IMG/VR virus record: IMGVR_UViG_2585427767_000004
Strand: one strand, 5' to 3'
DNA from: a virus
Taxonomy: Duplodnaviria; Heunggongvirae; Uroviricota; Caudoviricetes
DNA length: 18,960 nucleotides
The first letter of the stretch is position 1. Each line of letters begins with the position of its first letter. Below are positions 1-18,541 of the stretch, piece by piece. The notes beneath the pieces were generated by a model. The model was not told the origin of the DNA. It searched no databases and saw only the letters and a program-made list of their open reading frames with translations. The position numbers and the translations under genes are program-made.

Positions 1-884
1 ATGGGTATGCTGGAAAGAGAGATGAAAAACCTGGCGCGGCAGGCTGGCGGGGCGCACAAGATTGTCCATGACCGTATCGCCACGGCAGGACGGTTCTGTG
101 GACGCCTGATGGAACTGAACGTTCAGATACGCTATGTCCACCATTTAAAGACGAAGCATATTGAGGCGTATATTCAGATGCGGCTGGCGCAGGGGATTCA
201 GAAACAGACGCTGCATAATGAAACGGCGGCCATCCGTAAAATACTGACGCAGGCCGGGCGCGAAAAGCTGGCGCAGAGTGAGCGGATATCGAATAAATCG
301 CTGGGGCTGGCTGGCGTATCCCGCAACGGTACGCGGAAAGCCATTACGCCGGAATATTATCAACAGATGGCAGAGACTGCCCGGCTGAAAGACGCGGGAC
401 TGGAGGCAGCGCTGGAGCTGGCACGGCTGATGGGGTTACGTTCACAGGAAGCAGTACGCTGTTCCGGTTCACTAAAAACCTGGCGCGAAGCACTGGCGCA
501 CGGCGACACCCGGCTGACCGTGGTACTCGGCACCAAAGGCGGACGGCCCCGCGGCACCCTTATTCAGGATACTGGCGCAGTTAAACGGGCGCTTGAGACT
601 GCCATTGCGGTGACAGAACGGCGTAACGGCAGGCTGATTGATACGGCGAGCCTTAAACAGGCAATAAAATACTGGCGCAACCACACTTTGCGTATGGGCT
701 GACGGACAAATACTCCCCGCACTCACTGCGCTACGCCTGGGCGCAGGACGATATCCGCCGGTATCTGGCGCAAGGATTCAGCGAAAAAGAGGCGCTGGCA
801 ATGGTGGCGATGGGCCTGGGGCATGGCGACGGGCACGGTCGCTGGGTGAAGCAGGTGTACGCACACGAATGGAAGAAGGAATAA
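1..884 (+). pseudogene. Tyrosine recombinase (phage-type integrase), reading frame disrupted
   Basis: ORF 1..702 (233 aa) has an integrase-like N-terminal/central region including an Arg-containing box-I-like segment (RLTVVLGTKGGRPRG). TGA at 700-702 ends it, but the catalytic box II continues in another frame at 699..884 (LTDKYSPHSLRYAWAQDD...GLGHGDGHGRWVKQVYAHEWKKE, with His-x-x-Arg and a C-terminal Tyr). Either a real frameshift or a sequencing indel near 690-705. The ORF reaches the window start, so the true 5' end may lie upstream. Confidence 0.6.
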
Positions 885-2494: not shown

Positions 2495-3865
2495 ATGACT
2501 CTGAATGAATTTTCATCAACCACAGCATCTATTTTTGGTAATTTTGAAAAAATCATAAGAATGCTAAAAAGCATAAGTGACCCTAAATACATAACCGTTG
2601 CCAACAGAAGAAGCAAACTTTTGGGAAATATGTCCGAACATATTTCCATAATCAATAAATTCCATCCTTTCGCACATGCTGAATTCTTTACAAAAGAAGA
2701 AAAAGAAAATATCTTTTCACTACTAAAACTTACGGACAACTACATATCATCTATGATTTCTGATATTTTTTCAGATGATATTTATCGGAACATTATCACT
2801 ATCAATGATGATTTAATTAGGTATTCAAGAATATCTAAGTTTATCCAAGGCACGCATAATCAACCTAATACCTTAGCCATGTTCAAAAATCAAGCATCTA
2901 ATGAAATAGCCAAAGTGGTAGATCTGAAAAATGAAATTGAAATAAGTGCAACTCAAATCAGAGAGTTAGCAGTAAGAAATGCAAATTCTCATGATAAAAT
3001 CATTAAACTTGTTACGGACTTGAACGCCGAGACGAAAAAATTTGAAAGCGCCGGTTCTGAAATAGAATTCATACTAAAAAAGAGCAGAGATGCACTTATT
3101 GGTATAGAATCATCTAGTGAAAAGCTAAGAACTGTTGAAGAAACATTAAACAATATCGTTAATACAAACAAATCAATGCAAGACGAAATCATTAAAAAAT
3201 CTGCTGAGTCTGCCAGTGAGATTAAAAATCTCCTTGATAAAAAAAATGAAATTAAAGAATTAAAAACCATTATATCTGGTGAAATAAATAATGCGAAAGA
3301 ATTGAACTCTAAAGCTAATTCCGCATTGAATTTATCTGGAACATATAGGCTATCAAGACATTTTAGAGATGCATACAAAACCGCAAATAAAAACAAAAGG
3401 TTTTGGGCCTTTGTATCAATAGGAGCTGCAATCGTATGTATAGCATTCGTGGTTTATATGCTTGTCAAGATGAATGAAGTTAGTTCTTATCCTCCTACAG
3501 GCCAAGAGCCCAACTTATTATTATTATTCTTTGCTCGATTCTCAATGATTCCAGTATTAATAGGCTTCTTTGTATTTAGCGCCATACAATATGTTAAACA
3601 AAACAACATCAGTGAAGATTATGCGCATAAAAAATTGCTATCTGAAACTCTTGTATCTTTCAAGCAGGAAATCAATAAGAACGATACCGATAAATCATCA
3701 TTATTCATGGATAACATTCTTAAATCAGTATTAAGATCACCGCTTAGCTCCATAGACAAGAAGTCGCATCAAATGGAAATTGATAAAATAAACGAATTGA
3801 TTAATACGACATCTAAAATTAATAAAGAAATTATAGACCGCGTTTTGCCTGAGAAAGAGAAATAA
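2495..3865 (+). CDS. Hypothetical protein, 456 aa: coiled-coil-rich N-terminal domain, two predicted transmembrane helices, short C-terminal tail; candidate membrane effector (defence / superinfection exclusion); family not recognised
   Basis: Long uninterrupted ORF in a visibly AT-rich block, with ATG at 2495 and a weak GGA Shine-Dalgarno about 6 nt upstream. Residues about 309-330 (FWAFVSIGAAIVCIAFVVYMLV) and about 348-370 (LLLLFFARFSMIPVLIGFFVFSAI) are strongly hydrophobic. The N-terminal 300 aa are K/E/I/N-rich with heptad-like periodicity. No catalytic motif recognised. Confidence 0.8.
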   Translation: MTLNEFSSTTASIFGNFEKIIRMLKSISDPKYITVANRRSKLLGNMSEHISIINKFHPFAHAEFFTKEEKENIFSLLKLTDNYISSMISDIFSDDIYRNIITINDDLIRYSRISKFIQGTHNQPNTLAMFKNQASNEIAKVVDLKNEIEISATQIRELAVRNANSHDKIIKLVTDLNAETKKFESAGSEIEFILKKSRDALIGIESSSEKLRTVEETLNNIVNTNKSMQDEIIKKSAESASEIKNLLDKKNEIKELKTIISGEINNAKELNSKANSALNLSGTYRLSRHFRDAYKTANKNKRFWAFVSIGAAIVCIAFVVYMLVKMNEVSSYPPTGQEPNLLLLFFARFSMIPVLIGFFVFSAIQYVKQNNISEDYAHKKLLSETLVSFKQEINKNDTDKSSLFMDNILKSVLRSPLSSIDKKSHQMEIDKINELINTTSKINKEIIDRVLPEKEK

Positions 3866-4512: not shown

Positions 4513-4644
4513 GTGGGAGGAGGTGCAAATCCTCTCATACAAAAAATACGTAAAATCGGTAACGGCTGGAAATAATTCAATACTTGCACTATCGGAAGTT
4601 CACCAGCCAGCCGCAGCACGTTCTTGCATACGACGTGCCTGCGG
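4513..4644. repeat. Direct repeat A (about 130 bp), partner of 9108..9234; ends in a stem-loop
   Basis: Aligns by eye to 9108..9234 at roughly 80 percent identity (shared CAAATCCTCTC...GTAAAATCGGTA.C.GCTGGAAAT.ATTCAA...GCACTATCGGAAGTTCACCAGCC..CCGCAG). 3' hairpin CCGCAGCACG-loop-CGTGCCTGCGG followed by TTT. Confidence 0.7.
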
Positions 4645-5349
4645 TTTCAACTCCCGCCAGCCCACCAATCATGATTGGACGGTGTAAGGACAACACCAAA
4701 AAAACATGAAGTTAGCAGTCTCAGCGGAACACCGACCAGACGGTAAGCAGACAAAAAAGGATAAGCAAAGGAGCCGCAGTTCCCTAATGACACGAAAGCC
4801 CGCATTCTGATTAATTTGCTGTGCTTCACCTATCTCCATCAATAAAAACCATTCTTTTATAGCTTGTATATGCCAACTTGGCATGAATGCTTGTGATGAG
4901 TGAGGTGTGAAAGTTAGACGCAACATCCCCCTAGCGCCCACTCATTGCTATCGACGCCTTATTTTCAACATCAATGCAAATAGAAGTATGAAGATCGATG
5001 ATAGTAAACATTAGGTTAAAAAAACACGTAGTACTCTCCTTGGAGTATGAAGACGTTACTCACTTTAAGATTAGCATCCTCAAACCACTGTGAATTTGCT
5101 CCCATACGGAAAGAGGTGACTCAGACCTACAAAAATTTGTCAGGCCCGAAGGGTATCTTGCGCCAGCATAAAATACTGGATATAACCTAACTATTCATTT
5201 TAGCAATAGCCATTGCTTACGAGAGCTAGCTAATCTACGTAAATGCTAGGCATAACAGTGTCTTTAAAAGATATAGGTGGAATAAGTTCTGAAGTATGAG
5301 TGCTCTTCTTTTTCATCTATTCGTAATCAAAATGTGGATGTGATTGTTA

Positions 5350-8300
5350 ATGACAAATAAAAAAAATTTGAGTAATCCTTTTTCTACAGGCGGAGGCGGT
5401 GTTCATTTTGAAGCACATGTCCAAGCGTCTTTTGTTGCTCTAATGCTAACAGGCGGTAATGCACCTTGTCTTCCTTGTTGGCCCATAGTGGAGATAAATC
5501 TCCAGGGCAAGATTGATGGTTTTGATACCGACGACTTGATCGTCGTTGTTAAAGATTTCAACAGCAATGAAAAACGGAAGCTATTAGGACAAATAAAGCA
5601 TTCTATTTCATTTACGCAAGGTAATGCGATACTTGGGGAAGTTATACAGGCTGCTTGGAACGATTTCAACAATCCTGACTTGTTTACCAAGAACAAGGAT
5701 GTTATTGCACTGATCACCGGTCCGCTCAGTTCGACCGATACACACAATGTGCTCTGGTTATTGAATCAGGCTAGACACACAAAAACAGTCGATGAATTTT
5801 TGAGGAACGTTCAAAAAGCCAAGTTCAGCCCGCCTAAAAGTACTGAGAAACTGGAGGCCATCCAGTTTCATCTGAAGATGGCAAACAGTGGGAACGATTT
5901 AACAAACGATGAGCTTTATGACTTTTTGAACCATTTCCATTTACTAGGGTACGATCTGGGTAATGAATCAGGCGTCGTCCTTTCTTTGCTGCACTCCCAC
6001 ATAGCGCAATTCCATCAACAGTATCCTCAGTGGGTTTGGTCGCGGATAGTTGATATCGTACAAACTTGGAATAAAGATGCTGGCACTATCATTTCAAGTA
6101 AGCTACCTGAAGATCTTTTAGATGTTTTCAAACAAAGGGTTATTGCTGAAATACCTGAGAAGTTGAGGTTAGTACAACCGGTAGTCAAAACCGACTGGAC
6201 TCACCACCCAGATGCCTCTTATTTAGCCTTAGCAGTGTTGATTGGGCAATGGAATGATAAAAATGAGTGTGACCGAAATGTACTAACCCAATTGCTTGGT
6301 ATCAGCTATGACGAATGGCTAAGGAAGGCTCGAGAGATTTTACATAGCCCAGACAGTCCTTTGTCCCTAAAAAACGGCATTTGGAAAGTAACAAATCGAA
6401 TGGAGCTATGGAGTCTTCTTGGATCCCGCATTTTTGATCAGAATCTTGAATTGTTTAAGTCTTCCGCGATTTCCGTACTCAAAGAGCCAGACCCTGCTTT
6501 CGAATTACCTGCTGAAGAGCGTTACGCTGCTAGTATTCATGGTAAGGTGCTGAAGTTTTCATCCACGCTGCGACAAGGTATAGCAGAGGGTTTAGCCATA
6601 ATCGGGAGTCGGCCAGAGGTTTGCGTTAACTGCTCTCAGGGGAATGCTGAAACTTCCGTTAACGTCGCAATACATACAATTTTGACTGATGCAAACTGGG
6701 TTTTATGGGGTAGCCTAAACGGTTTGCTACCAACTTTGGCTGAAGCAGCTCCTGCAAAATTTCTTGATGCAGTTGAGAAGGCAATGCGTCAGACTCCTTG
6801 TGCATTTGATGAGCTTTTTTCTCAAGAAGTAAATGGTATCACTGGTGGTAATTATCTGACAGGACTGCTATGGGCTCTAGAAGAATTAGCCTGGGATGAG
6901 CAATACCTAGTACGCGTCTGTGTTGTACTGGCCGAACTTGCCAGCCACGATCCTGGGGGCAAGTGGGCTAATCGACCATCTAACTCGCTTACTACTATAT
7001 TATTACCGTGGTTTCCGCAAACGCTGGCATCTATAGAAAAACGAAAAGTTGCAGTCAACGTCATCTTGCAGGAATGGCCTGACATTGCCTGGAATTTACT
7101 CGTCCAGCTTCTACCCGGTCACCATCAAACCTCTTCTGGGTCACACAAGCCCTCTTGGCGCCGAATAATCCCAGATGATTGGGAAAGCAAAGTGACTAAT
7201 CAGGATTACTGGTTGCAGACATCTTTTTATGCTGAGCTTGCCGTCAAAAACGCCGGAGAAGATATCGAACGCCTTACCTTGTTGATTGATAATTTTGATG
7301 GCCTTCCATCTCCTGCTTTCGAACATCTTCTTAAGCACCTCTCTTCGGAAACAATTAATTGTCTTAATGAAGAGCAGCGAGTTGTAATTTGGGATCATCT
7401 TCATCGATTCGCAAATAAACATCGGCGATTCTCTAATGCTAATTGGGCTTTACCTGATGATCTGCTGACCAAAATCGAAAATGTTGCCGAGCAACTGGCA
7501 CCTACCAATCCATTCAACTTATATCAGCACCTTTTTTCAAATCGAGATTTTGATCTTTACTTAGAAAATGGCGATTGGGAAGAACGGAGAAATAAACTCG
7601 AATCAAGGCGCGAATCCGCAATATCAGAAATTCTTAAGCAAGATGGCGCAGAAGGCGTTATTCGATTTGCAGATCACGTTTCTGCGCCCCATCAAATAGG
7701 AAGTGTACTCGGCACTATCAACGATGATGTGTTCGAAAAACTTCTTTTGCCCCGTTTCCTCAATACAAAAGAAAATAAGTATAAGGCATTGGTAAGCGCT
7801 TTTATTTGGAAGCGTTTCTATCTCAAAGGCTGGGAGTGGTTCGACAATCTGGATAAAGCTGACTGGACTCCTGAACAGTTAGGCCAATTCTTTGCTTATC
7901 TGCCTTTTAACAAGGAGACCTGGACCCGAGTCTCTCATTATCCTCAAGCTTCCGAGAACGAATATTGGGCTCGCACCGATGCAAATCCTGACCTGGGTGA
8001 AGGTGACCTTACTAGTGCCATCGATAAGCTGATTGATCATGGCAGACCTCTTGCGGCAATCAATTGCCTGTGCAGGATGCATCAGACAAAGCAGCCAATC
8101 GATACTGAACAGTGTATCCGCGCTTTGCTTGCTGCCACTTCAACTAACGAATCTAGCTCCAACATGGATGGTTACAACATAACTACCCTTATCCAATTTC
8201 TTCAGACTGATCCCAAAGTGAATCCGGATAATCTTTTTCAGATCGAGTGGGCTTACCTTCCATTGCTCGATGGTCACCAAGATGCTGTGCCTAAGTTCCT

Positions 8301-8892
8301 TGAGAATAAAATGGCTAATGATCCAGAATTTTTCTGCGAAGTAATCCAACTCATTTATCGTTCTGACAAAGAAGACAATATGACAAGTGAACCAACAGAG
8401 GAATTGAAAGCAATCGCAAAAAATGCCTGGACTCTTTTGTACAACTGGAAGACACCGCCAGGAAGCCAATCAAATGGGACGTTCAACGGAGAACGCTTTA
8501 CTGAATGGCTTCAGAAAGTTAAGGAGGGTTCTACGGCATCAGGTCACCTGGACGTTGCACTCAGCAAAGTTGGTGAAGTCTTGATTTATACTCCCTCCGA
8601 ACCGAATGGCTTGTGGATAAACCGAGAGGTCGCAGCTGCTCTCAACGATCGAGATGCTGAGAGTATGCGCAGGGGCTACATGACAGGAGCCTACAACTCA
8701 CGAGGTGTTTATTGTGTTGACCCAACTGGAAAACCTGAGAGAGAGCTAGCTGACCAGTTCCGGGCAAAAGCAGAAGAAGTGGAAAACGCTGGTTTTCAGC
8801 GATTCGCCGTTACCTTAAGAGATTTAGCGGTTGGCTATGACCACGAAGCTGCACAGGTTATCAGCAATCTAAATATTGGAGAGGATGATTAA
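5350..8892 (+). CDS. Large hypothetical protein (about 1180 aa), no P-loop; family not recognised; candidate stand-alone defence or toxin protein
   Basis: Uninterrupted 3.5-kb ORF. The track starts at TTG 5344, but ATG 5350 (MTNKKNLSNPF...) is the more likely start. Moderately AT-rich compared with the tail genes. No Walker A (GxxxxGK[ST]) found on reading the translation. Gly-rich N-terminus (FSTGGGGVHFEAH), CxxC pairs (CLPC, CVNC), Trp-rich helical remainder. Putative terminator just downstream. Confidence 0.85.
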   Translation: MTNKKNLSNPFSTGGGGVHFEAHVQASFVALMLTGGNAPCLPCWPIVEINLQGKIDGFDTDDLIVVVKDFNSNEKRKLLGQIKHSISFTQGNAILGEVIQAAWNDFNNPDLFTKNKDVIALITGPLSSTDTHNVLWLLNQARHTKTVDEFLRNVQKAKFSPPKSTEKLEAIQFHLKMANSGNDLTNDELYDFLNHFHLLGYDLGNESGVVLSLLHSHIAQFHQQYPQWVWSRIVDIVQTWNKDAGTIISSKLPEDLLDVFKQRVIAEIPEKLRLVQPVVKTDWTHHPDASYLALAVLIGQWNDKNECDRNVLTQLLGISYDEWLRKAREILHSPDSPLSLKNGIWKVTNRMELWSLLGSRIFDQNLELFKSSAISVLKEPDPAFELPAEERYAASIHGKVLKFSSTLRQGIAEGLAIIGSRPEVCVNCSQGNAETSVNVAIHTILTDANWVLWGSLNGLLPTLAEAAPAKFLDAVEKAMRQTPCAFDELFSQEVNGITGGNYLTGLLWALEELAWDEQYLVRVCVVLAELASHDPGGKWANRPSNSLTTILLPWFPQTLASIEKRKVAVNVILQEWPDIAWNLLVQLLPGHHQTSSGSHKPSWRRIIPDDWESKVTNQDYWLQTSFYAELAVKNAGEDIERLTLLIDNFDGLPSPAFEHLLKHLSSETINCLNEEQRVVIWDHLHRFANKHRRFSNANWALPDDLLTKIENVAEQLAPTNPFNLYQHLFSNRDFDLYLENGDWEERRNKLESRRESAISEILKQDGAEGVIRFADHVSAPHQIGSVLGTINDDVFEKLLLPRFLNTKENKYKALVSAFIWKRFYLKGWEWFDNLDKADWTPEQLGQFFAYLPFNKETWTRVSHYPQASENEYWARTDANPDLGEGDLTSAIDKLIDHGRPLAAINCLCRMHQTKQPIDTEQCIRALLAATSTNESSSNMDGYNITTLIQFLQTDPKVNPDNLFQIEWAYLPLLDGHQDAVPKFLENKMANDPEFFCEVIQLIYRSDKEDNMTSEPTEELKAIAKNAWTLLYNWKTPPGSQSNGTFNGERFTEWLQKVKEGSTASGHLDVALSKVGEVLIYTPSEPNGLWINREVAAALNDRDAESMRRGYMTGAYNSRGVYCVDPTGKPERELADQFRAKAEEVENAGFQRFAVTLRDLAVGYDHEAAQVISNLNIGEDD

Positions 8893-9107: not shown

Positions 9108-9234
9108 GTGGAGGCGGTTCAAATCCTCTCAGGCAAAAATATGTAAAATCGGTAGCAGCTGGAAATCATTCAACACCCGCACTATCGGAAGTTCACCAGC
9201 CATCCGCAGTAACTTGTCATGGCAAGACACTGCG
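9108..9234. repeat. Direct repeat B (about 130 bp), partner of 4513..4644; ends in a stem-loop
   Basis: Same element as repeat A. Its hairpin is CCGCAGTAACTTG-loop-CAAGACACTGCGG: the stem is preserved with different inner base pairs, i.e. compensatory changes relative to copy A. Lies immediately 3' of the minus-strand gene 9246..9533. Confidence 0.7.
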
Positions 9235-9245
9235 GATTCTTATGC

Positions 9246-9533
9246 TTAACGGATCAACAGCCAGACCAGCAGACACGCCACCACCGGCACAGCAAAATCC
9301 ATCAGGCTTGCCACATCCCAAGCACGCGGATCAAAACCGCCCCACCACGGCATATTCATTCGCTTGCCATGCCCGAACATTTCAATCCAGCGATATTCTG
9401 CCTGGGTATGTTCACGAGCGATGAAGAACGTACAACCAGCTATCGCACCGTAAGCCCAGTTTCCGGTAAAAAGACCAACCAGTACCTGCGCAGCCACAGC
9501 ACAAAGTGCATGAAGTAAGGGGCTTATATCCAT
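9246..9533 (-). CDS. Small hydrophobic (membrane) protein, 95 aa, last gene of the tail-fibre operon; function unknown
   Basis: ORF with two to three hydrophobic segments (LLHALCAVAAQVLVGLF, AVPVVACLLVWLLI). Follows the tail-fibre genes on the same strand with a 13-nt gap. Confidence 0.65.
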   Translation of the reverse strand: MDISPLLHALCAVAAQVLVGLFTGNWAYGAIAGCTFFIAREHTQAEYRWIEMFGHGKRMNMPWWGGFDPRAWDVASLMDFAVPVVACLLVWLLIR

Positions 9534-9546
9534 TACTCCTCCTTTA

Positions 9547-10248
9547 TCAGATATCGTTTCGGGAAGTTGATAACAACTTTAATTCTGACTGAAGTTCATC
9601 AACTCTTTCTGTCAGTTTCTGGATATGGTGAATCAGTGGAACAACCAGACGTTCGTACATTACACCTTCGGCAACAAGGCCATTGCTGGAAATAGCTTCC
9701 GGTGCATCATCTTCGTTAGCTGGTCGCCAGTGTACAAACTGAGGGGCAATTTCTCCTACTTCCTCGGCAATCAATCCGTAGAATCCCCAGTCACGCCTGT
9801 CATTTTCGCATTGCGACCTGTACCACACAGGGCGCATCTTGAAAATGAGATCGGCGTGCTCTGAATCTATCGTCTCTACTGAATGTTTATAGCGAATAGA
9901 CGATGTTGACCGCAGTACAGACGAAATTGCGGGGTCAGGATTAAGATAAAGGTTTGCCGCCGCTGTAGTCGTGGCCAAATTCCATAAATAAAACGCTTCT
10001 CGACCTGTCAGCGGGTAAAAATCACCGCCATAACGACCGCTTTCCAGATCGTTCGCTTCCACTTTGTTTTTCAGCTTATTATCAACTTCAGTTTTTGTGT
10101 ATCTGGTGCTGATATCCTGCTTTGCACTGGTCATATCAGTCTGAAGCGTTGATACTTTTCCGTTAATTGAGGAAATATCTTCCTTAGCTTTACTGACATC
10201 TCCCTTTAGCGTGGTAATGTCTCCCGGAATTACTGTCGATGTAGCCAT
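9547..10248 (-). CDS. Tail fibre domain protein with C-terminal intramolecular chaperone (peptidase S74-like) domain
   Basis: N-terminal coiled-coil-like segment (GDITTLKGDVSKAKEDISSINGKVSTLQTDMTSAKQDIS) and C-terminal WGFYGLIAEEVGEIAPQFV...YERLVVPLIHHIQKLTERVDELQSEL, which matches the pattern I recall for endosialidase-chaperone-type C-terminal domains of phage fibres. Confidence 0.7.
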   Translation of the reverse strand: MATSTVIPGDITTLKGDVSKAKEDISSINGKVSTLQTDMTSAKQDISTRYTKTEVDNKLKNKVEANDLESGRYGGDFYPLTGREAFYLWNLATTTAAANLYLNPDPAISSVLRSTSSIRYKHSVETIDSEHADLIFKMRPVWYRSQCENDRRDWGFYGLIAEEVGEIAPQFVHWRPANEDDAPEAISSNGLVAEGVMYERLVVPLIHHIQKLTERVDELQSELKLLSTSRNDI

Positions 10249-10257
10249 TTTTCTTCC

Positions 10258-10539
10258 TCACATCCAGCCACGAAGTTGATGCTCAACAGCAACCACGTAT
10301 TCATCGAATATTGACAGTGTTTTCACATCATTAATGATGCGCACGTTTACAAAATATCCGTCTTCCTTAACACATACCGGTTCGCCATCTTCATTCAGTT
10401 CTCCGGTTTCTTTGTACACGTTACCTATCACGTCAATAAGAATATCATCCTGCATCGACTCGTCATCATAATAGCCAGTGCTATCCATAAAGGCCGAAAA
10501 GTCGGCCTTGTCTGCAAATTTAAGGGTTAAGTCTCTCAT
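10258..10539 (-). CDS. Hypothetical phage protein (93 aa), translationally coupled to stf
   Basis: Start codon overlaps the stf stop (ATGA overlap at 10536-10539). Acidic protein. Sits where lambda carries tfa but is shorter, and I do not recognise it as Tfa. Confidence 0.65.
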   Translation of the reverse strand: MRDLTLKFADKADFSAFMDSTGYYDDESMQDDILIDVIGNVYKETGELNEDGEPVCVKEDGYFVNVRIINDVKTLSIFDEYVVAVEHQLRGWM

Positions 10540-12596
10540 GATATTTTTTCTCCCATTTGTGTCTCGGTCAATTCTTTATGCCAGTTCCTAAAATTTCGAA
10601 TATGACCGAATAAGTGACGTTCACCCGTTGAAGTTTGCCCACCAAAACGAATGCTTGTATTCTTAGTTACATATCTCCACGCGGTTTTTTTAGGAACACT
10701 AGGAGGAATATCACCATTCAAAACAATATGAACACCATAATCTTTAGTAATTCTAAATCCAGCAACGAACTTTCTCTCTTTCGTTACCAGGTAACTATTA
10801 ACGCGTCCAGCATCTGCACCAACATCAATATAAGGGCTACCAGTATTTGCGGCAGTACCGCCACGGCAACCAAAAATAACGGCCTGGCCCGTTGGCACAC
10901 CGGAAAAATCCATTATACGTGGTGCTGCATTAGGAGGAAGTTCCCATTCCCAATTTCGATGAACTTCGGCTAAAATTGTAATAGGTGCGTCATACATATT
11001 ATTCTTAACAGGAATGTTAACCAAATCACTAGCGCGGGTAGCTGGTACGTCGTTAGTTATGATTAATGATGTTGCATGAGAACATTTCTCTACCTGAGCG
11101 GTTGCCGCCTTTATGTAATTTCCTGCGACCAATTCGCCGCCACTTTTAGCAAGCATTTCAGTACGAGCATAAACGCTCATATCTTCGGTAGCTTTAAATG
11201 TCGATTGGAAAAAATACCATCCACTAGCAGGATCATAATCAACGCGACTAGACAAAACATCACTAACTAGTTTAGCGGTATCAAGATCCAACATAGCATC
11301 AGCAATAAATGTGTTTCCGTTCCCGTCATCATTTAATTTTGAAATACGATGGCGAGCGCGACAACCAGCCCCCTTAACACGAATAGATATAGTAACATAT
11401 TCACCACCAACAACTGGAATCACACGGGATGTCCCAGTAGAAATCAACGTAACTGGCCCAGTGTCGGATGATTCTTTATAAGTGAATGTTGCTTGAGTAA
11501 AACCAAATTCATCAATAGAGTTTTCACTAACAGATAGACGGTTTGTATTTCTGTTCCAGTTCGCTGGTGAGTTACTATTAATAAAGTTATTAGTCGTAGT
11601 ACCTTCAATCAACAAACCATTTTTTTCGAAGCGTGGTTCGTCAATTGCAGCCTCCGTCAGTACACCAGATTTGTTAATGTAGGTTGCTTTCGATGCGCGT
11701 TTAAACTTTACAACCTTATCGCCAGGCATTGTTATTTCATCATCACCAATAACAATCTTTTTATATGATGGCGAAAAGCCCGTAATCATATCCAGTGAAT
11801 CGTTAAACGGTATCCACACATCGGGAAGCGGCTGCAAAACTTGTTTATACGGCTCCGCAGCCTGGCTTGCATACTCTCTGGCTGCGTCTTCACTTGCTTT
11901 AGCTGCTGTCTGGCTTGCTGCCGATGCTTTCGCCGAGTTCGCCGCCGCTGTTTCGCTCGCCTTTGCGTTGTTTTCACTGGTTTTTGCTGCTTTTTGGCTG
12001 TTGGCTGATGCAGTGGCAGAAATAGCCGCCTCGCTTGCAGATCCGGCTGCGGCACTCTCGCTTTCAGCTGCTGCATCCTGACTGTTTTTCGCCGCAGTTT
12101 CGCTGGCTTTAGCGTTCGTTTCGCTGGTCTTCGCTACCGTCTGGCTGGACTTTGCGTTAGTTTCGCTCGTCTTCGCTGCTTTCTGGCTGTTAGCAGCTGC
12201 AGTTTCGGATTTCTTTGCCGCCGCTGCGCTCTGAGAGGCGGCTTCAGCGTTGCGTGCTGCTTCTTCCACCATTGCCTCAAAACGACGCAATGCCTCCGGC
12301 ATGACATCATCTTCCGTCATGGCACCGAGAAAATCATTCAGCGTACCAGGTCTGGAACCTTCATAGACGGTAATGGTTCCGGCATGTGAAGGCGGAAAAC
12401 CTTCAACCAGCAGGGTGACGCTGTACTGGCCATGCTCAACATCCATGCTGTAACTCCCGGCTTCATCCGGATTTTCAGAGGCCACCGTGTTCACCAGTAC
12501 CGTGGTGCTGTTACGCTTTGCTTTGAGCTGAATAGTGCAGTTCTGTATTGGTTTTCCTGCACCGTCTTTCAGCACGCCTGAAATCTGTACTGCCAT
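10536..12596 (-). CDS. stf: Side tail fibre protein (lambda Stf-like) with Ala/Ser/Thr-rich repeat shaft and a distinct C-terminal domain
   Basis: N-terminus MAVQISGVLKDGAGKPIQNCTIQLKAKRNSTTVLVNTVASENPDEAGSYSMDVEHGQYSVTLLVEGFPPSHAGTITVYE closely resembles the lambda Stf N-terminus as I recall it. Start placed at ATG 12596 with GGAG 5 nt upstream; the track start at 12602 is an in-frame GTG. Confidence 0.9.
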   Translation of the reverse strand: MAVQISGVLKDGAGKPIQNCTIQLKAKRNSTTVLVNTVASENPDEAGSYSMDVEHGQYSVTLLVEGFPPSHAGTITVYEGSRPGTLNDFLGAMTEDDVMPEALRRFEAMVEEAARNAEAASQSAAAAKKSETAAANSQKAAKTSETNAKSSQTVAKTSETNAKASETAAKNSQDAAAESESAAAGSASEAAISATASANSQKAAKTSENNAKASETAAANSAKASAASQTAAKASEDAAREYASQAAEPYKQVLQPLPDVWIPFNDSLDMITGFSPSYKKIVIGDDEITMPGDKVVKFKRASKATYINKSGVLTEAAIDEPRFEKNGLLIEGTTTNNFINSNSPANWNRNTNRLSVSENSIDEFGFTQATFTYKESSDTGPVTLISTGTSRVIPVVGGEYVTISIRVKGAGCRARHRISKLNDDGNGNTFIADAMLDLDTAKLVSDVLSSRVDYDPASGWYFFQSTFKATEDMSVYARTEMLAKSGGELVAGNYIKAATAQVEKCSHATSLIITNDVPATRASDLVNIPVKNNMYDAPITILAEVHRNWEWELPPNAAPRIMDFSGVPTGQAVIFGCRGGTAANTGSPYIDVGADAGRVNSYLVTKERKFVAGFRITKDYGVHIVLNGDIPPSVPKKTAWRYVTKNTSIRFGGQTSTGERHLFGHIRNFRNWHKELTETQMGEKIS
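11855..12270 (-). repeat. Tandem short repeats inside stf encoding an (A)KTSETNAKAS-like Ala/Ser/Thr-rich shaft
   Basis: Protein residues about 112-250 consist of reiterated AAKTSETNAK / SQKAAKTSE / ASETAAKNS units; the DNA shows corresponding reiterated GCTTTAGC/GTTTCGCT/GTCTTCGC blocks. Confidence 0.55.
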
Positions 12597-12610
12597 ATTC
12601 ACTCCACAAA

Positions 12611-12656: not shown

Positions 12657-15600
12657 TCAACGGATACTGATACCGGAAGCAGCTTTTTTGGTCACAATCA
12701 CTGTACAGTCTGTGATGTTACCTGCGCCCTGATTGCCTTTCTGGAAAACCTTAAACTCCAGAGTGACGCTTCCCCTGCCACTCGGCATATCAATAACCGC
12801 ACTGTAGCTACCGGGAATGGCCCCTTTAGTTTCTCTGGATGCGATTAATACACCGTTTTTGCGAACTTCAAAACCATAACCCGTGTATCTTGTACCTCCC
12901 GGGTTATTACCACTTCCCGGATCGCTATACGCTATTCCGTTAAAGATAATGGGCGGAATAATGATTTGACGGTCAAAGTTATGATCATCGCTGATGGTGA
13001 CTGTAACCGTCCCGTTTGGTGTTTCCGTATTACCCCACGTACCAGCCTGTTTCGGGAATGATTTGGATACAGCTTTAACGAAGTCACCTCTGACCTGAGT
13101 CGCCTCCAGCATGCCCTTAATCGTACAGTTTTCATTTACCGTGACATTGTTGAACGTCCCGGCGTTCGCATTCACACTGCCACTGATATCCGCATTTTTA
13201 GCGGTCAGCTTTCCGTCTGATGTCAGGGAAAATGCCGGTGGATTTCCACCACTGGTAATGGTCGGGGCCGTCAGGCGCTTCAGGAACACGTCGTTCATAA
13301 ATATCTGATTGCCCTGCGCCACAAACATCGGCGTTTCATTCCCGTTTGCCGGGTCAATAAACGCGATACGGTTAGCGGCAACCAGAAACTGGCTCAGCTT
13401 GCCTTCTTCCGTGTCCTCCATGCTGAGGCCAATACCCGCGACATAATGTTTGCCGTCTTTGGTCTGCTCAATTTTGACGCCCCACATGGCATTCCACTTA
13501 TCGTTAGCGTCCTGCCACTCTTTCGAAAACTCCTCCAGTTTGCTGGCGTTATCCTCCGTCAGCTCGACTTTTTCCAGCAGCTCCTTGCCGAGATGGGATT
13601 CGGTTATCTGGCCTTTGAAAAAATCCAGGTAACCTTCCGCATCATCGCTCGCCTGACCGACAGCCTCCACGAATGCCGATTTGCCAACGGTGTTCACACT
13701 GCGGATATAAAAGTAATAATCATGGCCCGGTTTGATATTGATACTGGCGGCTATCCAGTACATCCCCGTGCCAAGATAGCGGGCTGTGGTTTCAACCTGC
13801 CTGATATCCGCAATCCGTTTTTCCGAGAACCAGAACTCAAACTGTACCGTCGGGTCATAAACCGCAAGATGCGGCGTGGCGGTTATCTGAAAATAGCCCG
13901 GTGTCAGCTCAATCCGAGACGGCGCTGCCGGTGCGGCAATCCGGAACGATACCGATGCCGGATCGCCCTGCTGTCCCCACGCATTTACCGCCCGGACTGT
14001 CAGCCTGTAGTTCCCCAGCGCCAGTTGCGTGAAGCGGTATGTGGTTTCCGCCGTCCGGGCCGTGCTGACCAGCCGCTCACTGCCGTCATCCGCTGCCACG
14101 GTCAGGCGAAGCATGAAACTCACGCCCTTCACCACCTTCGGCGTGTCCCAGCGGGCCAGCACCTGGTATTCCCCACTGTCTGCGGTGACTTCGGCAGTCA
14201 GGTGCTGCACCGCTGGCGGCGTGACACCATTCACCGTGCCGCTCTGGTCGCCGTCAAAGTGCGCCCCGTTATCCACGATGGCTTCTTTTTCCGGTACATG
14301 CTGCACGGCGGTGATGGCATACGTGCCGTCGTCGTTCTCACGGATACTCACGCAGCGGAACAGGCGCTGGCGCAGCGTCGGCAGCTTCAGCCCCCACACG
14401 CTGTATTCAGCAACGCCGTCAGGAACACGGCTCACTTTCACCTTCACGCCGTCGGTGACGGACTGAACCTCCACGCTGACCGGATTGCCACTTCCGTCAA
14501 CCAGGCTTATCAGCGTGGTACCGGAGGATGGCAGCGTGATTTCACGGTCGAGCGTCAGCGTCCGGGTCTGGCTGTTTACCGCCAGCACGCGCCCGCCGGT
14601 GCTGATACCGGCATAGTCATCATCACAGATTTCAATGACATCGCCCGGCACATGGCGAAGCCCTTCGGCACCCACGCTGAAGTCCACCGTCTGCGTTTCC
14701 AGCAGCTCCGTTTTAATCAGCCACAGCCCGGCGCGGTGTGCCTGCCCCCGGCTGGTACAGCCAAAGGCATCCATCTTCGTGACGTTACGACCGTAACGGG
14801 CAATGGCCTGCGAGTCCTCCACAAGCTCTGTTGCCGTCTCCCAGCCGTTATCCGGGTCAATCCAGTTCACCTCAACGGCATTATGGCGGTCTTTCAGGGC
14901 GCTGAAGCTGTAGCGGAACGGCGCGCCATCATCCGGCATCACCACATTACTGCGGTTATAGGTCCACACCTTATCCGACGGTCGGTCCTGCACGAACGTC
15001 AGCGTCTGCCCGTTCCATACCGGCATACAGCGCATCGCCGAGCAGAAATCACTGAGCACATCCCACGCCTTGCGCTGTGTGGTCAGGTATGCATTACAGG
15101 TGATGCGCGGCTCCGTGCCGCCAAAGCCGTCCGGTACTGACTGGTCGCAGTACTGGCCGATGACATACAGCGCCCATTTGTCCACATCCGCCGCACCAAG
15201 ACGTTTCCCCATGCCGTAGCGTGGATGGGTCAGCATATCCCACAGACACCAGGCCATGTTGTTGCTGTATGCCGGTTTAAACGTTCCGTCCCAGATACCG
15301 CTGTATTGCCGCGTCTGCGGGTTATAGTTCGACGGCACCTGCAGAATGCGCCCGCGAAGATGATAATTACGGCTCACCTGCTGGCTGCCGAACTGCTCCG
15401 AATCCACCTGTACGCCGACCAGTGCCGTGTTCGGGTAGCACTGTTTCACATCGATGATTTCGGTGTATGACGACCAGAGCGTTTTGTTCTGCAGCTGGTC
15501 TGTGGTGCTGTCCGGTGTCATCCTGCGCATCCGGATATTGAACGGGCGCGGCGGCAGGTTATCCACCACCACCGAGGCCAGATACTGCGAGGTGGTTTTG

Positions 15601-16070
15601 CCCTTAATGGTGATGTCTTTTTCCGTCACCCAGCCACCGTTACGCTGTATCTGAACCAGCAGGCGGACTTCCGACGGATTCCTGTCTCCCTTTGAGGTGG
15701 TTTCCACCAGTGCCTGTACACCGAAGGTAAAGCGCAGACGGTCGATGTTTGCCGACGTGATGGTCCGGGTGATCGGCGTGTCATATTTCACTTCCGTACC
15801 CAGCACCGTCTCGGAGCCGGAGGATTCAAATCCCTCCGGCGGTGACTGCTCCTGCTCACCGGCCCGGAACACCACCGTGACGCCGGAGATGTTGGTATTC
15901 CCCTCAGTGTCCAGCACCGGCGTACTGTTCAGCAGCACACTTTTTAATCCCTCCACCGGACCTTCAACCGGCCCTTCGCTGATGGCATCGATCACACTCA
16001 GCAACTGCGTGGACTTCAGGTTGTCCTTCGCTTCGCGCGGGGTATGCCCCTTACTGCTGCCTTTACCCAT
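12657..16070 (-). CDS. J: Host specificity protein J (central tail fibre / tip attachment protein)
   Basis: 1137-aa protein beginning [34 protein letters not shown], colinear with lambda J as I recall it over most of its length. The C-terminal roughly 130 aa (from about [20 protein letters not shown]) appear different. GGAG ribosome-binding site upstream. Confidence 0.95.
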
Positions 16071-17424: not shown

Positions 17425-17968
17425 TTACTGCGAAAGTTTGTTAATGGAAAGGAAGCCGCCAAAGTTGCCGACGTTATTGCGGAACTTACAGCCGCTCAGG
17501 CATTTGCTGCATTTATCCTTCGTGATATCGGATGTTGGCTGGTCATATTCATCCGCGACAGCCGGACCGCTATAACCGCACTCATCACCGCGATAGGTCC
17601 AGGTGCAGGTGTTGGCCAGCATGATACGTCCCGGAAAAACAGCGCCATCCGTTTCCGTCGGTGTGGACAACACAAAGGAGGCACTTACCGCGCTCAGTTC
17701 GCTGCACTGCTCAATGCGCCAGCGGCTGATCACCTCCTGCTCTGGATCGGCGTCGCTGTTTCCGTTGACGAAGTTCACCGCATCCAGAAAACGGGCATAA
17801 ACCTTACGCCTGACCACCGTTCCGCCGACCAGACTCTGCAGGTCTTCCGCCATCCCGGTGACCATACCGTACAGGTTAGAAACCGTCAGCATGGGGCGCG
17901 TACTGGTGCCTTTGCCATTCAGTTCGAAACCACTCCCCTGAATGGGATACGCCTGATACTGTCGCCCC
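17425..17968 (-). pseudogene. L: Minor tail protein L, 5'-truncated by IS insertion
   Basis: From ...GRQYQAYPIQGSGFELNGKGTSTRP to the C-terminal ...GNFGGFLSINKLSQ resembles lambda gpL. The first codons of the track ORF (MSNIWGAVQ, 17969..17994) are encoded by the IS left end, and the expected N-terminal roughly 50 residues of L are absent from this side. Confidence 0.8.
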
Positions 17969-18010
17969 TGAACTGCACCCCAAATGTTGGACATAATCTG
18001 ACATCTGAAG

Positions 18011-18541
18011 GTGCAGTTTATGAAACATTCATTTGAAGTAAAACTTGCCGCTGTAAATCATTACCTGGCTGGTCATGCAGGCATCATTTCTACGGCAAAA
18101 CTCTTTCAACTTTCTCACACCAGCCTCTCACACTGGATTAATCTTTTTCTTCTTCACGGTCCTCGGGCACTGGATTGCAGACACAAGCGTAGCTATTCTC
18201 CTGAAGATAAACTTTGCGTGGTTCTTTATGCTCTCGGGCATTCTGAGTCTCTACCCCGGGTAGCTGCCCGGTTTAACATTCCCAGCCACAACACGGTTAA
18301 AAACTGGATAAAAGGCTACCGCAAATCTGGTAATGAGGCCTTTATCAGGCGCAGGAAGGAGAAAAGCATGACCCGTTCTGATGATACCCATGAAAACGAG
18401 GCAAACATGACGCCGGAAGAGATGAAGAATGAGCTGCGTTATCTTCGCGCAGAAAATGCATATCTGAAAGCCATGCAGGAGCATCTCCTGGAAAAAAAGC
18501 GCCAGGAGCTGGAGAAAAAACGAAAGTCATCCGGAGCCTGA
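18011..18541 (+). CDS. IS3-family transposase OrfA (HTH DNA-binding component)
   Basis: 176-aa ORF with helix-turn-helix-like N-terminus and a leucine-zipper-like C-terminus (ELRYLRAENAYLKAMQEHLLEKK). The true start may be ATG 18020 (MKHSFEVKLAAVNHY). Confidence 0.85.
   Translation: MQFMKHSFEVKLAAVNHYLAGHAGIISTAKLFQLSHTSLSHWINLFLLHGPRALDCRHKRSYSPEDKLCVVLYALGHSESLPRVAARFNIPSHNTVKNWIKGYRKSGNEAFIRRRKEKSMTRSDDTHENEANMTPEEMKNELRYLRAENAYLKAMQEHLLEKKRQELEKKRKSSGA
18493..18499 (+). promoter_or_regulatory. Programmed -1 ribosomal frameshift site (A AAA AAG) for OrfAB fusion
   Basis: Heptamer A-AAA-AAG in the orfA zero frame at 18493-18499, with orfB open in the -1 frame from here on. Confidence 0.6.

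What the first reader, a model, noticed from the sequence alone, without database searches (positions are those of the whole stretch)
9246..10539. Three small genes downstream of stf where lambda has tfa: coupled 93-aa ORF, chaperone-domain fibre protein and a small membrane protein
Instead of a recognisable tail-fibre assembly gene, stf is followed by a translationally coupled acidic 93-aa ORF, a 233-aa protein ending in an intramolecular chaperone-like domain, and a 95-aa hydrophobic protein. The last of these could be a lysogenic-conversion or exclusion factor, since small membrane proteins at the end of tail operons often are. It lies directly against repeat B and the cargo cassette.
Basis: partly seen in the sequence, partly recalled or inferred. 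Interest (0 to 1): 0.4.

Follow-up and report, generated by a model that had tools for sequence, protein, structure and literature searches.

The report
Two-part side tail fibre plus membrane protein
The three small genes after stf are real and conserved: an accessory protein that always accompanies this type of side tail fibre, a short second fibre that folds with its own self-cleaving chaperone domain, and a small membrane protein that temperate phages repeatedly place behind receptor-binding genes; the set is common in E. coli prophages, and two of the three proteins have no known function.

Summary
On the minus strand, stf (688 aa) is followed by a 93-aa acidic ORF whose start overlaps the stf stop (ATGA), a 233-aa ORF with a Peptidase_S74 intramolecular-chaperone domain, and a 95-aa three-helix hydrophobic ORF. 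None is Tfa-like.

The set is not unusual. About 740 of 5,426 complete E. coli genomes carry the 233-aa gene and about 1,900 carry the 95-aa gene, including the Qin prophage of BL21.

The stf / ~92-aa / second-fibre cassette recurs in lambdoid, T1-like and T5-like phages (IrisVonRoten gp22-23-24). The second fibres differ in length and sequence but share an invariant N-terminal motif (M[AV]TxTVIPxDIxxLK) and a C-terminal chaperone domain. This fits a distal fibre docked on a proximal Stf that carries a hypervariable lectin domain.

The 93-aa protein follows that Stf C-terminal domain in every lineage examined, with or without a second fibre. It is an Stf accessory; whether it acts as a chaperone or a structural joint is unresolved.

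The 95-aa protein belongs to a broad proteobacterial family. It is a chromosomal gene in Aeromonas and sphingomonads. In many unrelated prophages it sits directly behind receptor-binding genes, and it is absent from the four virulent phages examined (three with the full cassette). An exclusion or lysogenic-conversion role is plausible but untested.

Verdict: an ordinary module with two uncharacterised protein families.

The parts
10536..12602 (-). stf, 688 aa. Proximal side tail fibre with a lambda-type N-terminal anchor, an Ala-rich shaft and a C-terminal lectin-like domain.
   Evidence: Pfam phage_tail_N at residues 3-133, E 2e-66. NCBIfam GTA_spike_fiber at 331-524. PHROG phrog_1419 'tail protein'. 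The N-terminus matches PDB 9e7m 'Tail fiber protein', E 3e-47.
10623..11615 (-). Hypervariable part of stf (about aa 330-660), the presumed receptor-binding lectin domain.
   Evidence: Among 67 distinct Stf alleles, identity to the window is 20-45% here, against about 90% for aa 1-320 and 77% for aa 661-680. A distant homologue in Chelativorans (L324, phrog_5939/1419) hits Pfam Laminin_G_3, the ConA-like lectin family.
10258..10539 (-). orf93. Acidic 93-aa accessory protein of this Stf class (PHROG phrog_1361, unknown function).
   Evidence: ATGA overlap with the stf stop, pI 4.09. phrog_1361 match, E 1e-44. Homologues lie directly downstream of fibres with the same C-terminal domain in lambdoid, Drexlerviridae, Demerecviridae, Vequintavirus, Dhillonvirus and JenP1 phages. 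No Pfam, NCBIfam or PDB match.
9547..10248 (-). orf233. Short distal (second) fibre precursor.
   Evidence: 97% identical to the IdasGreatGrand homologue and 57% identical over its full length to tinuso_66 of a virulent T1-like phage. Matches the C-terminal ends of long-fibre PHROGs 3299, 454 and 1699. dN/dS 0.18-0.39.
10204..10248 (-). Codons 1-15 of orf233 (MATSTVIPGDITTLK), the conserved N-terminal docking motif.
   Evidence: M1, T3, T5, V6, I7, P8, D10, I11, L14 and K15 are invariant in five second fibres of 224-576 aa from lambdoid, T1-like and T5-like phages that are otherwise unalignable. A gene with this motif is preceded by an orf93 homologue in all 79 viral contigs where upstream sequence was available.
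9550..9903 (-). Residues 116-233 of orf233: the intramolecular chaperone (Peptidase_S74) domain, with predicted autocleavage at Ser116.
   Evidence: Pfam PF13884 at residues 116-172 against profile positions 1-57. S116 and K121 occupy the Ser/Lys positions of the S-D-x-R-x-K cleavage motif; this motif is from my own knowledge of endosialidase chaperone domains. The region also aligns to PDB 8hqz residues 953-1028.
9246..9533 (-). orf95. Three-helix inner-membrane protein (PHROG phrog_1443, unknown function).
   Evidence: AlphaFold2 pLDDT 97, helices 4-23, 26-53 and 74-94. The family has 431 clusters at 50% identity, all about 90-120 aa, with R40, E41 and W72 invariant. The gene is present in 1,900 of 5,426 complete E. 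coli genomes.
9534..9546 (-). 13-nt spacer with a strong ribosome-binding site (AAGGAGG) between orf233 and orf95.
   Evidence: Read directly from the sequence. A 13-nt gap (10 nt in one locus) also joins the ~92-aa gene directly to the membrane-protein gene in Lambda_2E9-type prophages that lack the second fibre.

Best explanation
The three ORFs finish the late tail operon of a lambdoid prophage, which is probably defective. Together with stf they form a two-fibre host-recognition cassette followed by a gene specific to temperate phages.

(1) Stf is the proximal fibre. Its lambda-type N-terminus anchors it to the tail. Its C-terminal part carries a hypervariable lectin-like domain, related to the GTA head-spike fibre and ConA/LamG folds, that probably binds a surface glycan.

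(2) The 93-aa acidic protein is a dedicated accessory of that Stf C-terminal domain. It is made in step with Stf through the ATGA overlap. It acts either as a non-Tfa assembly factor or as a small structural piece at the distal end of Stf. My split is about 50:30, with the remainder for something else.

(3) The 233-aa protein is a short distal fibre. Its invariant N-terminal 15 residues dock it onto the Stf/93-aa end. A coiled coil of about 55 residues and a tip of about 45 residues follow. The C-terminal S74 chaperone domain trimerises the fibre and then cleaves itself off after Ser116, so no Tfa is needed.

(4) The 95-aa protein is not a fibre component. It is an inner-membrane protein, predicted N-in/C-out with a conserved cytoplasmic loop of about 34 residues. 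Temperate phages have captured it from a cellular family and placed it behind receptor-binding genes. It most likely alters the host envelope or blocks entry of incoming phage.

Shown here: gene reality, domain content, co-occurrence patterns and conservation. Inferred: docking, cleavage, the role of the 93-aa protein, the topology and the function of the 95-aa protein.
For: The cassette recurs. Stf-type fibre / ~92-aa / second fibre is found in IdasGreatGrand and Tritos (lambdoid), tinuso (Drexlerviridae), and EC100 and IrisVonRoten (Tequintavirus).

Every fibre followed by an orf93 homologue shares the window Stf C-terminal ~450 aa at 33-61% identity.

The second-fibre N-terminal motif is invariant across otherwise unrelated second fibres, and all of them end in a chaperone domain. 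All 79 motif-bearing genes with upstream sequence have an orf93 homologue immediately upstream. The T1-like and T5-like loci L292 and L294-L296 show the same arrangement.

The BASEL follow-up paper models IrisVonRoten Gp24 attached to a proximal fibre with a galectin-like C-terminal domain (10.1101/2024.09.12.612763). DT57C LtfB is likewise inferred to attach through LtfA by a conserved N-terminus (PMC4728585).

orf93 stays 88-97% identical while the Stf lectin region drops to 20-45%. It is also present where no second fibre exists, in Lambda_2E9-type prophages and Vequintavirus.

orf95 is absent from virulent tinuso, EC100 and IrisVonRoten, which carry the full cassette, and from Vequintavirus JeffSchatz, which carries the fibre and small protein. 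It is present in nearly all lambdoid loci that extend far enough.

In other taxa it lies directly behind tailspike, tail-fibre or J genes: Salmonella, Aeromonas salmonicida (P2-like), Leclercia, Chelativorans, Desulfovibrio, Acidovorax and Comamonas.

It has chromosomal homologues with conserved neighbours, beside ligA in sphingomonad-type alphaproteobacterial genomes and beside pirin in Aeromonas.

Its GC content of 52% contrasts with 42-45% for orf93 and orf233. K+R counts favour a cytoplasmic loop, 5.4 in the loop against about 0 in the TM1-TM2 turn.
Against: No complex prediction could be run, so docking of the second fibre and the place of orf93 rest only on co-occurrence. Most of that co-occurrence comes from closely related E. 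coli prophages.

The orf93 model has low confidence (pLDDT 54), so its fold is unknown.

orf93 without a second fibre shows it is not merely an adaptor for that fibre.

For orf95, no sigma-70-like promoter or terminator was found. Nothing upstream of its ribosome-binding site is conserved between arrangements. This suggests late-operon expression rather than expression in the lysogen.

The prophage in this window has gene L cut by an IS element, so these genes may no longer be used here.
Confidence: 0.6

Rival explanations
1. orf93 is purely a folding or assembly chaperone for the Stf C-terminal domain. It would be a functional analogue of lambda Tfa that is unrelated in sequence and absent from the virion. 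The second fibre would then dock on Stf itself.
For: It sits immediately downstream of the fibre gene and is translationally coupled to it, as Tfa-type chaperones are. It accompanies this C-terminal domain in every lineage, with or without a second fibre. Stf has no chaperone domain of its own and no tfa follows it.
Against: It does not co-vary with the hypervariable part of Stf: 97% against 54-60% identity. The lectin domain is a per-chain jelly roll (my inference), which may not need a trimerisation chaperone. BASEL annotators named the homologue bas32_0023 'tail fiber protein'. No homology to Caudo_TAP or to any chaperone was found.
Confidence: 0.35
2. orf233 is a decayed remnant, the C-terminal fragment of a once long fibre gene, and has no function.
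For: It aligns to the last ~240 positions of the 1385-position profile phrog_3299. The mature part would be only about 116 residues. The prophage in this window is already damaged.
Against: It has a proper start codon, a ribosome-binding site (GAGGAAGAAAA) and the N-terminal motif shared by full-length second fibres. Its length is fixed at 233-234 aa in about 30 distinct alleles. dN/dS is 0.18-0.39. A 57%-identical full-length homologue sits in the virulent phage tinuso, which keeps few dispensable genes.
Confidence: 0.07
3. orf95 acts late in the lytic cycle rather than in the lysogen. For example, it could stop progeny from re-adsorbing to or injecting into the dying cell, or it could help lysis or release.
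For: It lies 13 nt behind the last tail gene with a strong ribosome-binding site, and no promoter of its own was detected. In Chelativorans and Comamonas kerstersii it is ATGA-coupled to the gene upstream.
Against: Virulent phages with the same fibres lack it. It has no charged C-terminal tail and no lysis-cassette context, so it does not resemble a holin. Chromosomal homologues outside prophages point to a cellular activity.
Confidence: 0.3
4. orf95 is a host-fitness cargo gene unrelated to phage infection. Its position behind fibre genes would only reflect a permissive insertion site at the end of the late operon.
For: The end of the tail operon and the b region form a known cargo hotspot. 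In this window a repeat-flanked cassette lies next to the gene, and Lambda_2E9 carries sitABCD there. Cellular homologues exist.
Against: In Salmonella it lies between two tailspike genes. In the P2-like Aeromonas prophage it lies between the tail fibre and further tail genes, not at an operon end. Adjacency to receptor-binding genes recurs in at least seven unrelated tail-module types.
Confidence: 0.15

Closest known systems
IrisVonRoten (Bas32, Tequintavirus) lateral tail fibre locus gp22-gp23-gp24
   Same: Same three-gene order. gp22 shares the Stf C-terminal region at 42% identity, the 92-aa gp23 is 40% identical to orf93, and gp24 has the same N-terminal motif and a C-terminal chaperone domain (the motif was aligned for its 51%-identical relative EC100). 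The BASEL paper models gp24 on a proximal fibre that carries a galectin-like domain.
   Different: gp24 is a 574-aa T-shaped fibre with two receptor-binding domains, whereas the second fibre here is only 233 aa. The proximal fibre there has a T5-type anchor, not a lambda-type one. That locus has no membrane-protein gene. The paper does not discuss the role of gp23.
Branched lateral tail fibres of T5-like phages DT57C and DT571/2 (LtfA/LtfB)
   Same: Two adjacent fibre genes. The second fibre is inferred to attach through the first by a conserved N-terminal segment, and it has an autocleaving pfam13884 domain (PMC4728585; PMC10713586).
   Different: In DT57C both fibres end in a chaperone domain and no small ORF is reported between them. 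Here Stf ends in a lectin domain and a 93-aa gene intervenes. The N-terminal motifs are different.
Lambda Stf/Tfa
   Same: Same N-terminal Stf anchor domain (phage_tail_N) and the same position after J in the late operon.
   Different: The C-terminal half of Stf is different. Tfa is absent and orf93 has no Caudo_TAP similarity.
Exclusion proteins encoded next to receptor-binding genes (Cor of phi80/N15/HK022, Llp of T5)
   Same: A small envelope protein encoded next to the receptor-binding gene. These examples are from my own knowledge; Llp adjacency is mentioned in PMC4728585.
   Different: Cor and Llp are outer-membrane lipoproteins that block FhuA. orf95 has no lipobox, is a three-helix inner-membrane protein, has cellular homologues, and no phenotype is known.
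Inner-membrane superinfection-exclusion proteins (P22 SieA, HK97 gp15, T4 Imm)
   Same: Small prophage-encoded inner-membrane proteins, and HK97 gp15 lies within a tail operon. These examples are from my own knowledge; the paper found reports SieA.
   Different: No sequence similarity was detected in Pfam, PHROG or PADLOC searches. Function was not tested.

Membership tests
Tail fibre assembly protein Tfa (Pfam Caudo_TAP) | Profile match of orf93 or orf95 to Tfa-family models | tested here: not met
   orf93 has no Pfam family even at E <= 10, and no NCBIfam family. orf95 has only a PhoR hit at E 0.08. The PHROG matches of both carry 'unknown function'.
Peptidase_S74 intramolecular chaperone domain (orf233) | Profile match above the curated cut-off at the C-terminus | tested here: met
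   PF13884 scores 27.5 bits against a 22-bit cut-off, at residues 116-172 on profile positions 1-57. The region also matches PDB 8hqz, E 1e-6.
Peptidase_S74 intramolecular chaperone domain (orf233) | Ser and Lys at the cleavage motif (S-D-x-R-x-K) | tested here: met
   S116-S-I-R-Y-K121 aligns to the start of the profile. R119 and K121 are invariant in all five second fibres aligned. That these residues are catalytic comes from my own knowledge.
Peptidase_S74 intramolecular chaperone domain (orf233) | Autoproteolytic release after trimerisation | not testable with these tools
   Needs protein expression or virion mass spectrometry.
Lambda-type side tail fibre (Stf) | N-terminal phage_tail_N anchor domain and a position after J | tested here: met
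   PF08400, E 2e-66. PDB 9e7m tail fibre N-terminus, E 3e-47. The J homologue lies at 12657-16070.
Stf / ~92-aa / second-fibre cassette (IrisVonRoten gp22-24 type) | Homologues of all three genes in the same order | tested here: met
Stf / ~92-aa / second-fibre cassette (IrisVonRoten gp22-24 type) | Physical attachment of the second fibre to the distal end of Stf | not testable with these tools
   No multimer prediction was available. Only co-occurrence (79 of 79) and published models for the T5-like homologue bear on it.
DT57C-type branched fibre (LtfA/LtfB) | Both fibre proteins end in an autocleaving chaperone domain | tested here: not met
   Stf has no Peptidase_S74 hit. It ends in a lectin-like domain.
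Cor/Llp-type receptor-blocking lipoproteins (orf95) | Signal peptide with a lipobox cysteine | tested here: not met
   The residues before C11 are H-A-L, which is not a lipobox, and C11 is not conserved in the family. The lipobox consensus is from my own knowledge.
Holin (orf95) | Lysis-cassette context and a charged C-terminal tail | tested here: not met
   The gene lies at the end of the tail operon. The C-terminal tail averages 4.7 residues with 0.7 K+R. Only 1 of 100 family members gave a weak Phage_holin_8 hit, E 0.004.
Moron (independent transcription unit) (orf95) | Own promoter and terminator | tested here: inconclusive
   A simple consensus scan found no minus-strand promoter upstream of orf95 and no terminator. 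No upstream sequence is conserved between arrangements. The GC content differs from its neighbours. The scan is too crude to exclude a promoter.
Known anti-phage defence systems (orf93, orf95) | Match to PADLOC-DB models | tested here: not met
   No families for either protein.

The most novel reading that the evidence does not exclude
The 95-aa protein may represent a widespread, unrecognised family of inner-membrane proteins. Temperate phages of many tail types (lambda-like, P2-like, tailspike-bearing) would have recruited it from a cellular gene and placed it next to their receptor-binding genes, to change the envelope or block entry of related phages. That would make it a new, broadly distributed class of exclusion or lysogenic-conversion factor. 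Separately, the ~93-aa family, which includes a distant Comamonas relative with the same gene neighbours, could be a new type of fibre joint or assembly protein shared by at least five phage families.
Probability: 0.3. Interest if true: 0.6.

Novelty: new member of a known kind. Interest (0 to 1): 0.35.

Why it matters
Side-tail-fibre cassettes set the host range of lambdoid, T1-like and T5-like coliphages, and they are being swapped to retarget engineered phage particles. A cassette of this kind would need its ~93-aa partner gene, and its second fibre is a plug-in module with a 15-residue docking motif and its own chaperone domain. Both points give practical rules for building chimeras. The 95-aa gene is present in about a third of complete E. 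coli genomes, including BL21, yet is annotated only as hypothetical. If it is an exclusion or conversion factor, it would affect phage susceptibility in many clinical and laboratory strains. It is also easy to test.

Tried and rejected
- **Tfa identity.** Rejected for orf93 and orf95. Pfam, NCBIfam, PHROG and PDB sequence searches found nothing Tfa-like.
- **Structure of orf93.** Only near-identical homologues could be submitted, and the model is unreliable (pLDDT 54). I did not use it for fold search. A second homologue search with a diverse profile again listed only close relatives.
- **Holin, lipoprotein or known defence protein for orf95.** Rejected.
- **Own promoter or terminator for orf95.** None found with the simple scan.
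- **orf233 as a gene remnant.** Rejected on conservation, motif and dN/dS.
- **Literature.** Searches found no paper that assigns a function to either small family.
- **Comamonas relative of orf93.** The profile comparison is only weakly significant (hhalign E 0.0056). I treat the relationship as supported by gene order, not proven.
Full report
**1. Observation**

The window carries a lambda-like tail gene block on the minus strand: a truncated L, then K, I, a 1137-aa J and a 688-aa stf.

- orf93 (10258-10539): its ATG overlaps the stf stop as ATGA. Its pI is 4.09.
- orf233 (9547-10248): it starts 9 nt after orf93, behind a GAGGAAG ribosome-binding site.
- orf95 (9246-9533): it starts 13 nt after orf233, behind AAGGAGG.

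Pairwise dN/dS against homologues is 0.31-0.52 for orf93, 0.18-0.39 for orf233 and 0.11-0.32 for orf95. These are real genes.

**2. What the proteins are by sequence**

Stf has the lambda-type anchor, Pfam phage_tail_N at residues 3-133. It matches the tail-fibre N-terminus in PDB 9e7m. Its C-terminal half belongs to PHROG 1419 and includes the NCBIfam 'GTA head spike fibre' domain at residues 331-524.

orf233 matches Peptidase_S74, the intramolecular chaperone domain, above the curated cut-off at residues 116-172. S116 and K121 lie at the cleavage-motif positions. The preceding part is a coiled coil that resembles P22 gp26 and the repeats of the 8hqz 'L-shaped tail fiber assembly' chain.

orf93 (PHROG 1361) and orf95 (PHROG 1443) have no Pfam, NCBIfam, PADLOC or PDB match.

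**3. The module is common**

- The whole 1.6-kb region is at least 80% covered in 719 of 5,426 complete E. coli genomes.
- orf233 alone is present in about 740 genomes and orf95 alone in about 1,900, with a median of two copies per genome that has any.
- BL21 carries the module in its Qin prophage, where stf is truncated by IS3.
- An IMG/VR contig (L010) is 100% identical at the protein level for all four genes.

**4. A recurrent cassette across phage families**

tblastn with orf93 finds 186 phage records. They include lambdoid phages, Drexlerviridae, Dhillonvirus, JenP1, Tequintavirus/Epseptimavirus and Vequintavirus. In nearly all listed records the match abuts or overlaps a gene annotated as tail fibre or tail protein.

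In every locus examined, the upstream fibre shares the C-terminal ~450 residues of the window Stf at 33-61% identity.

A second fibre gene follows in IdasGreatGrand (234 aa), tinuso (224 aa, 57% identical to orf233 over its full length), Tritos (346 aa), EC100 (576 aa) and IrisVonRoten (574 aa). These proteins are otherwise unalignable. They share an invariant N-terminus, M[AV]TxTVIPxDIxxLK, and a C-terminal chaperone domain.

A DNA pattern for that motif recovered 80 genes in viral contigs. All 79 with upstream sequence are preceded by an orf93 homologue. Most of these are related E. coli prophages, so the cross-family cases carry more weight.

The converse does not hold. Lambda_2E9-type prophages (about 45 loci) and Vequintavirus have the small gene but no motif-bearing second fibre.

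**5. Where variation lies**

Among 67 distinct Stf alleles, residues 1-320 are about 90% identical to the window. Residues 330-660 fall to 20-45%, and residues 661-680 rise to 77%. In the same loci orf93 stays 88-97% identical.

So the lectin-like region is the hypervariable, presumably receptor-binding part. orf93 does not track it.

The stf variable region, orf93 and orf233 have 41-45% GC, against 56-60% for J, K and I. This fits exchange with virulent siphophages.

**6. Mechanistic reading of the fibre genes**

The published model for the T5-like homologue places the T-shaped gp24, which carries a chaperone domain, on a proximal fibre whose C-terminus bears a protruding galectin-like domain (10.1101/2024.09.12.612763). 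For DT57C, LtfB is inferred to attach through LtfA by a conserved N-terminal segment (PMC4728585; PMC10713586).

By the same logic I read orf233 as a short distal fibre docked by its N-terminal motif. It would fold with its own chaperone domain and be cleaved after Ser116. That explains why no tfa is present.

orf93 is the constant partner of the Stf C-terminal domain. Its position, coupling and acidity fit an assembly factor. Its lack of co-variation with the variable domain, and the BASEL annotation 'tail fiber protein' for bas32_0023, fit a structural joint. I could not separate these two roles. The only model obtainable has pLDDT 54, and no multimer prediction was available.

**7. The 95-aa protein**

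AlphaFold2 gives a confident three-helix model (pLDDT 97). The family has 431 clusters at 50% identity, all about 90-120 aa. R40, E41 and W72 are invariant. H8, Q44, A45, E46, R58 and P83 are nearly invariant. K+R counts, 5.4 in the 40-73 loop against about 0 in the TM1-TM2 turn, suggest an N-in/C-out topology with the conserved loop in the cytoplasm.

The gene context falls into two classes.

(a) Chromosomal, with conserved neighbours:
- beside pirin in Aeromonas (L008, L303, L308);
- beside NAD-dependent DNA ligase in sphingomonad-type alphaproteobacterial genomes (L349, L359, L361).

(b) In prophages, directly after receptor-binding genes:
- between two tailspike genes in Salmonella;
- ATGA-coupled to a P2-type tail fibre in Aeromonas salmonicida;
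- after a tailspike in Leclercia;
- after an S74-bearing tailspike in Desulfovibrio;
- ATGA-coupled to a LamG tail protein of PHROG 5939/1419 in Chelativorans;
- after J-type genes in Comamonas and Acidovorax.

Comamonas kerstersii even has the trio of a LamG tail protein, a 95-aa 'DVIG...GFHINL' small protein and the membrane protein, all ATGA-coupled. The small protein aligns weakly to the orf93 family (hhalign E 0.0056).

In E. coli the gene follows either the second fibre or, in Lambda_2E9-type loci, the ~92-aa gene directly, with a 13-nt gap in nearly every case. It is missing from the four virulent phages examined, three of which carry the full cassette.

It is therefore not a fibre component. 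It is a gene specific to temperate phages and linked to receptor-binding genes. An exclusion or envelope-conversion role is the most economical reading.

Two points count against a classic moron. No promoter or terminator was found, and nothing upstream of the ribosome-binding site is conserved. Late-operon expression is therefore a live alternative. Fold searches gave nothing specific.

**8. Comparison and novelty**

The fibre part is a new member of a known kind: two-component side or lateral fibres in which the distal subunit bears a chaperone domain. It differs from DT57C in that Stf ends in a lectin domain and a small gene intervenes.

The two small families are uncharacterised but very common. 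Nothing in this window differs from hundreds of database copies.

The most novel reading not excluded is that the orf95 family is a broad, unrecognised class of exclusion or conversion factors with cellular ancestry (probability about 0.3).

**9. Verdict**

The module is ordinary and widespread. Interest is moderate to low (0.35), and it rests mainly on the two testable unknown families.

Noticed in passing
window 4516-4616 and 9110-9209: Direct repeats of about 100 nt (87-89% identical), each with a tRNA T-arm-like GGT(T/G)CAAATCC. They bracket a 4.6-kb cassette whose only long ORF (5344-8892, plus strand, 1182 aa) has no Pfam or PADLOC match. This looks like a repeat-flanked cargo insertion at the end of the tail operon.
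   Followed up: partly
window 17425-18541: An IS3-family orfA (18011-18541, plus strand; HTH_28 and HTH_Tnp_1) interrupts tail gene L. The remaining L ORF matches Phage_tail_L profile positions 24-206 only, so the prophage is probably defective.
   Followed up: partly
window 2495-3865: A 456-aa ORF with very low GC (31%) and only a weak PADLOC DruC hit (E 1e-4). It may be defence-related cargo.
   Followed up: no
window 1-702: An ORF of 233 aa that begins at the first base of the window and matches integrase domains (Phage_int_SAM_2 and Integrase_1). The cargo region therefore lies between the tail fibres and int, as in the lambda b region.
   Followed up: no
window 10623-11615 (stf aa 330-660): The lectin-like part of Stf is hypervariable: 20-45% identity among 67 alleles, between flanks that are 77-90% identical.
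   Followed up: yes
L302 3551-5294 (Comamonas kerstersii): Three ATGA-coupled genes: a 388-aa LamG-type tail protein (PHROG 5939), a 95-aa small protein with the motif DVIG...GFHINL, and a 98-aa homologue of orf95. The trio may predate the split between beta- and gammaproteobacteria, or it may have been transferred as a unit.
   Followed up: partly
L349, L359, L361 (sphingomonad-type alphaproteobacteria); L008, L303, L308 (Aeromonas): orf95 homologues are chromosomal genes with conserved neighbours, next to NAD-dependent DNA ligase and next to pirin respectively, outside any prophage.
   Followed up: partly
L002 about 5280-5320 (Tritos) and Tritos-type loci: A GC-rich hairpin followed by a T-run (GGGGCCGAGCGCCCCGTTTTATT) lies between the 346-aa second fibre and the membrane-protein gene. 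It is absent from the window arrangement.
   Followed up: no
L364 (E. coli BL21 Qin prophage, NZ_CP060121.1 1552900-1556127): BL21 carries the same module with stf truncated by IS3. A tfa remnant and pinQ lie downstream of the membrane-protein gene.
   Followed up: no
L216 and L010 (IMG/VR genome 2585427747): One host genome carries both cassette arrangements in two prophages: one with the 233-aa second fibre and one of the Lambda_2E9 type without it.
   Followed up: no
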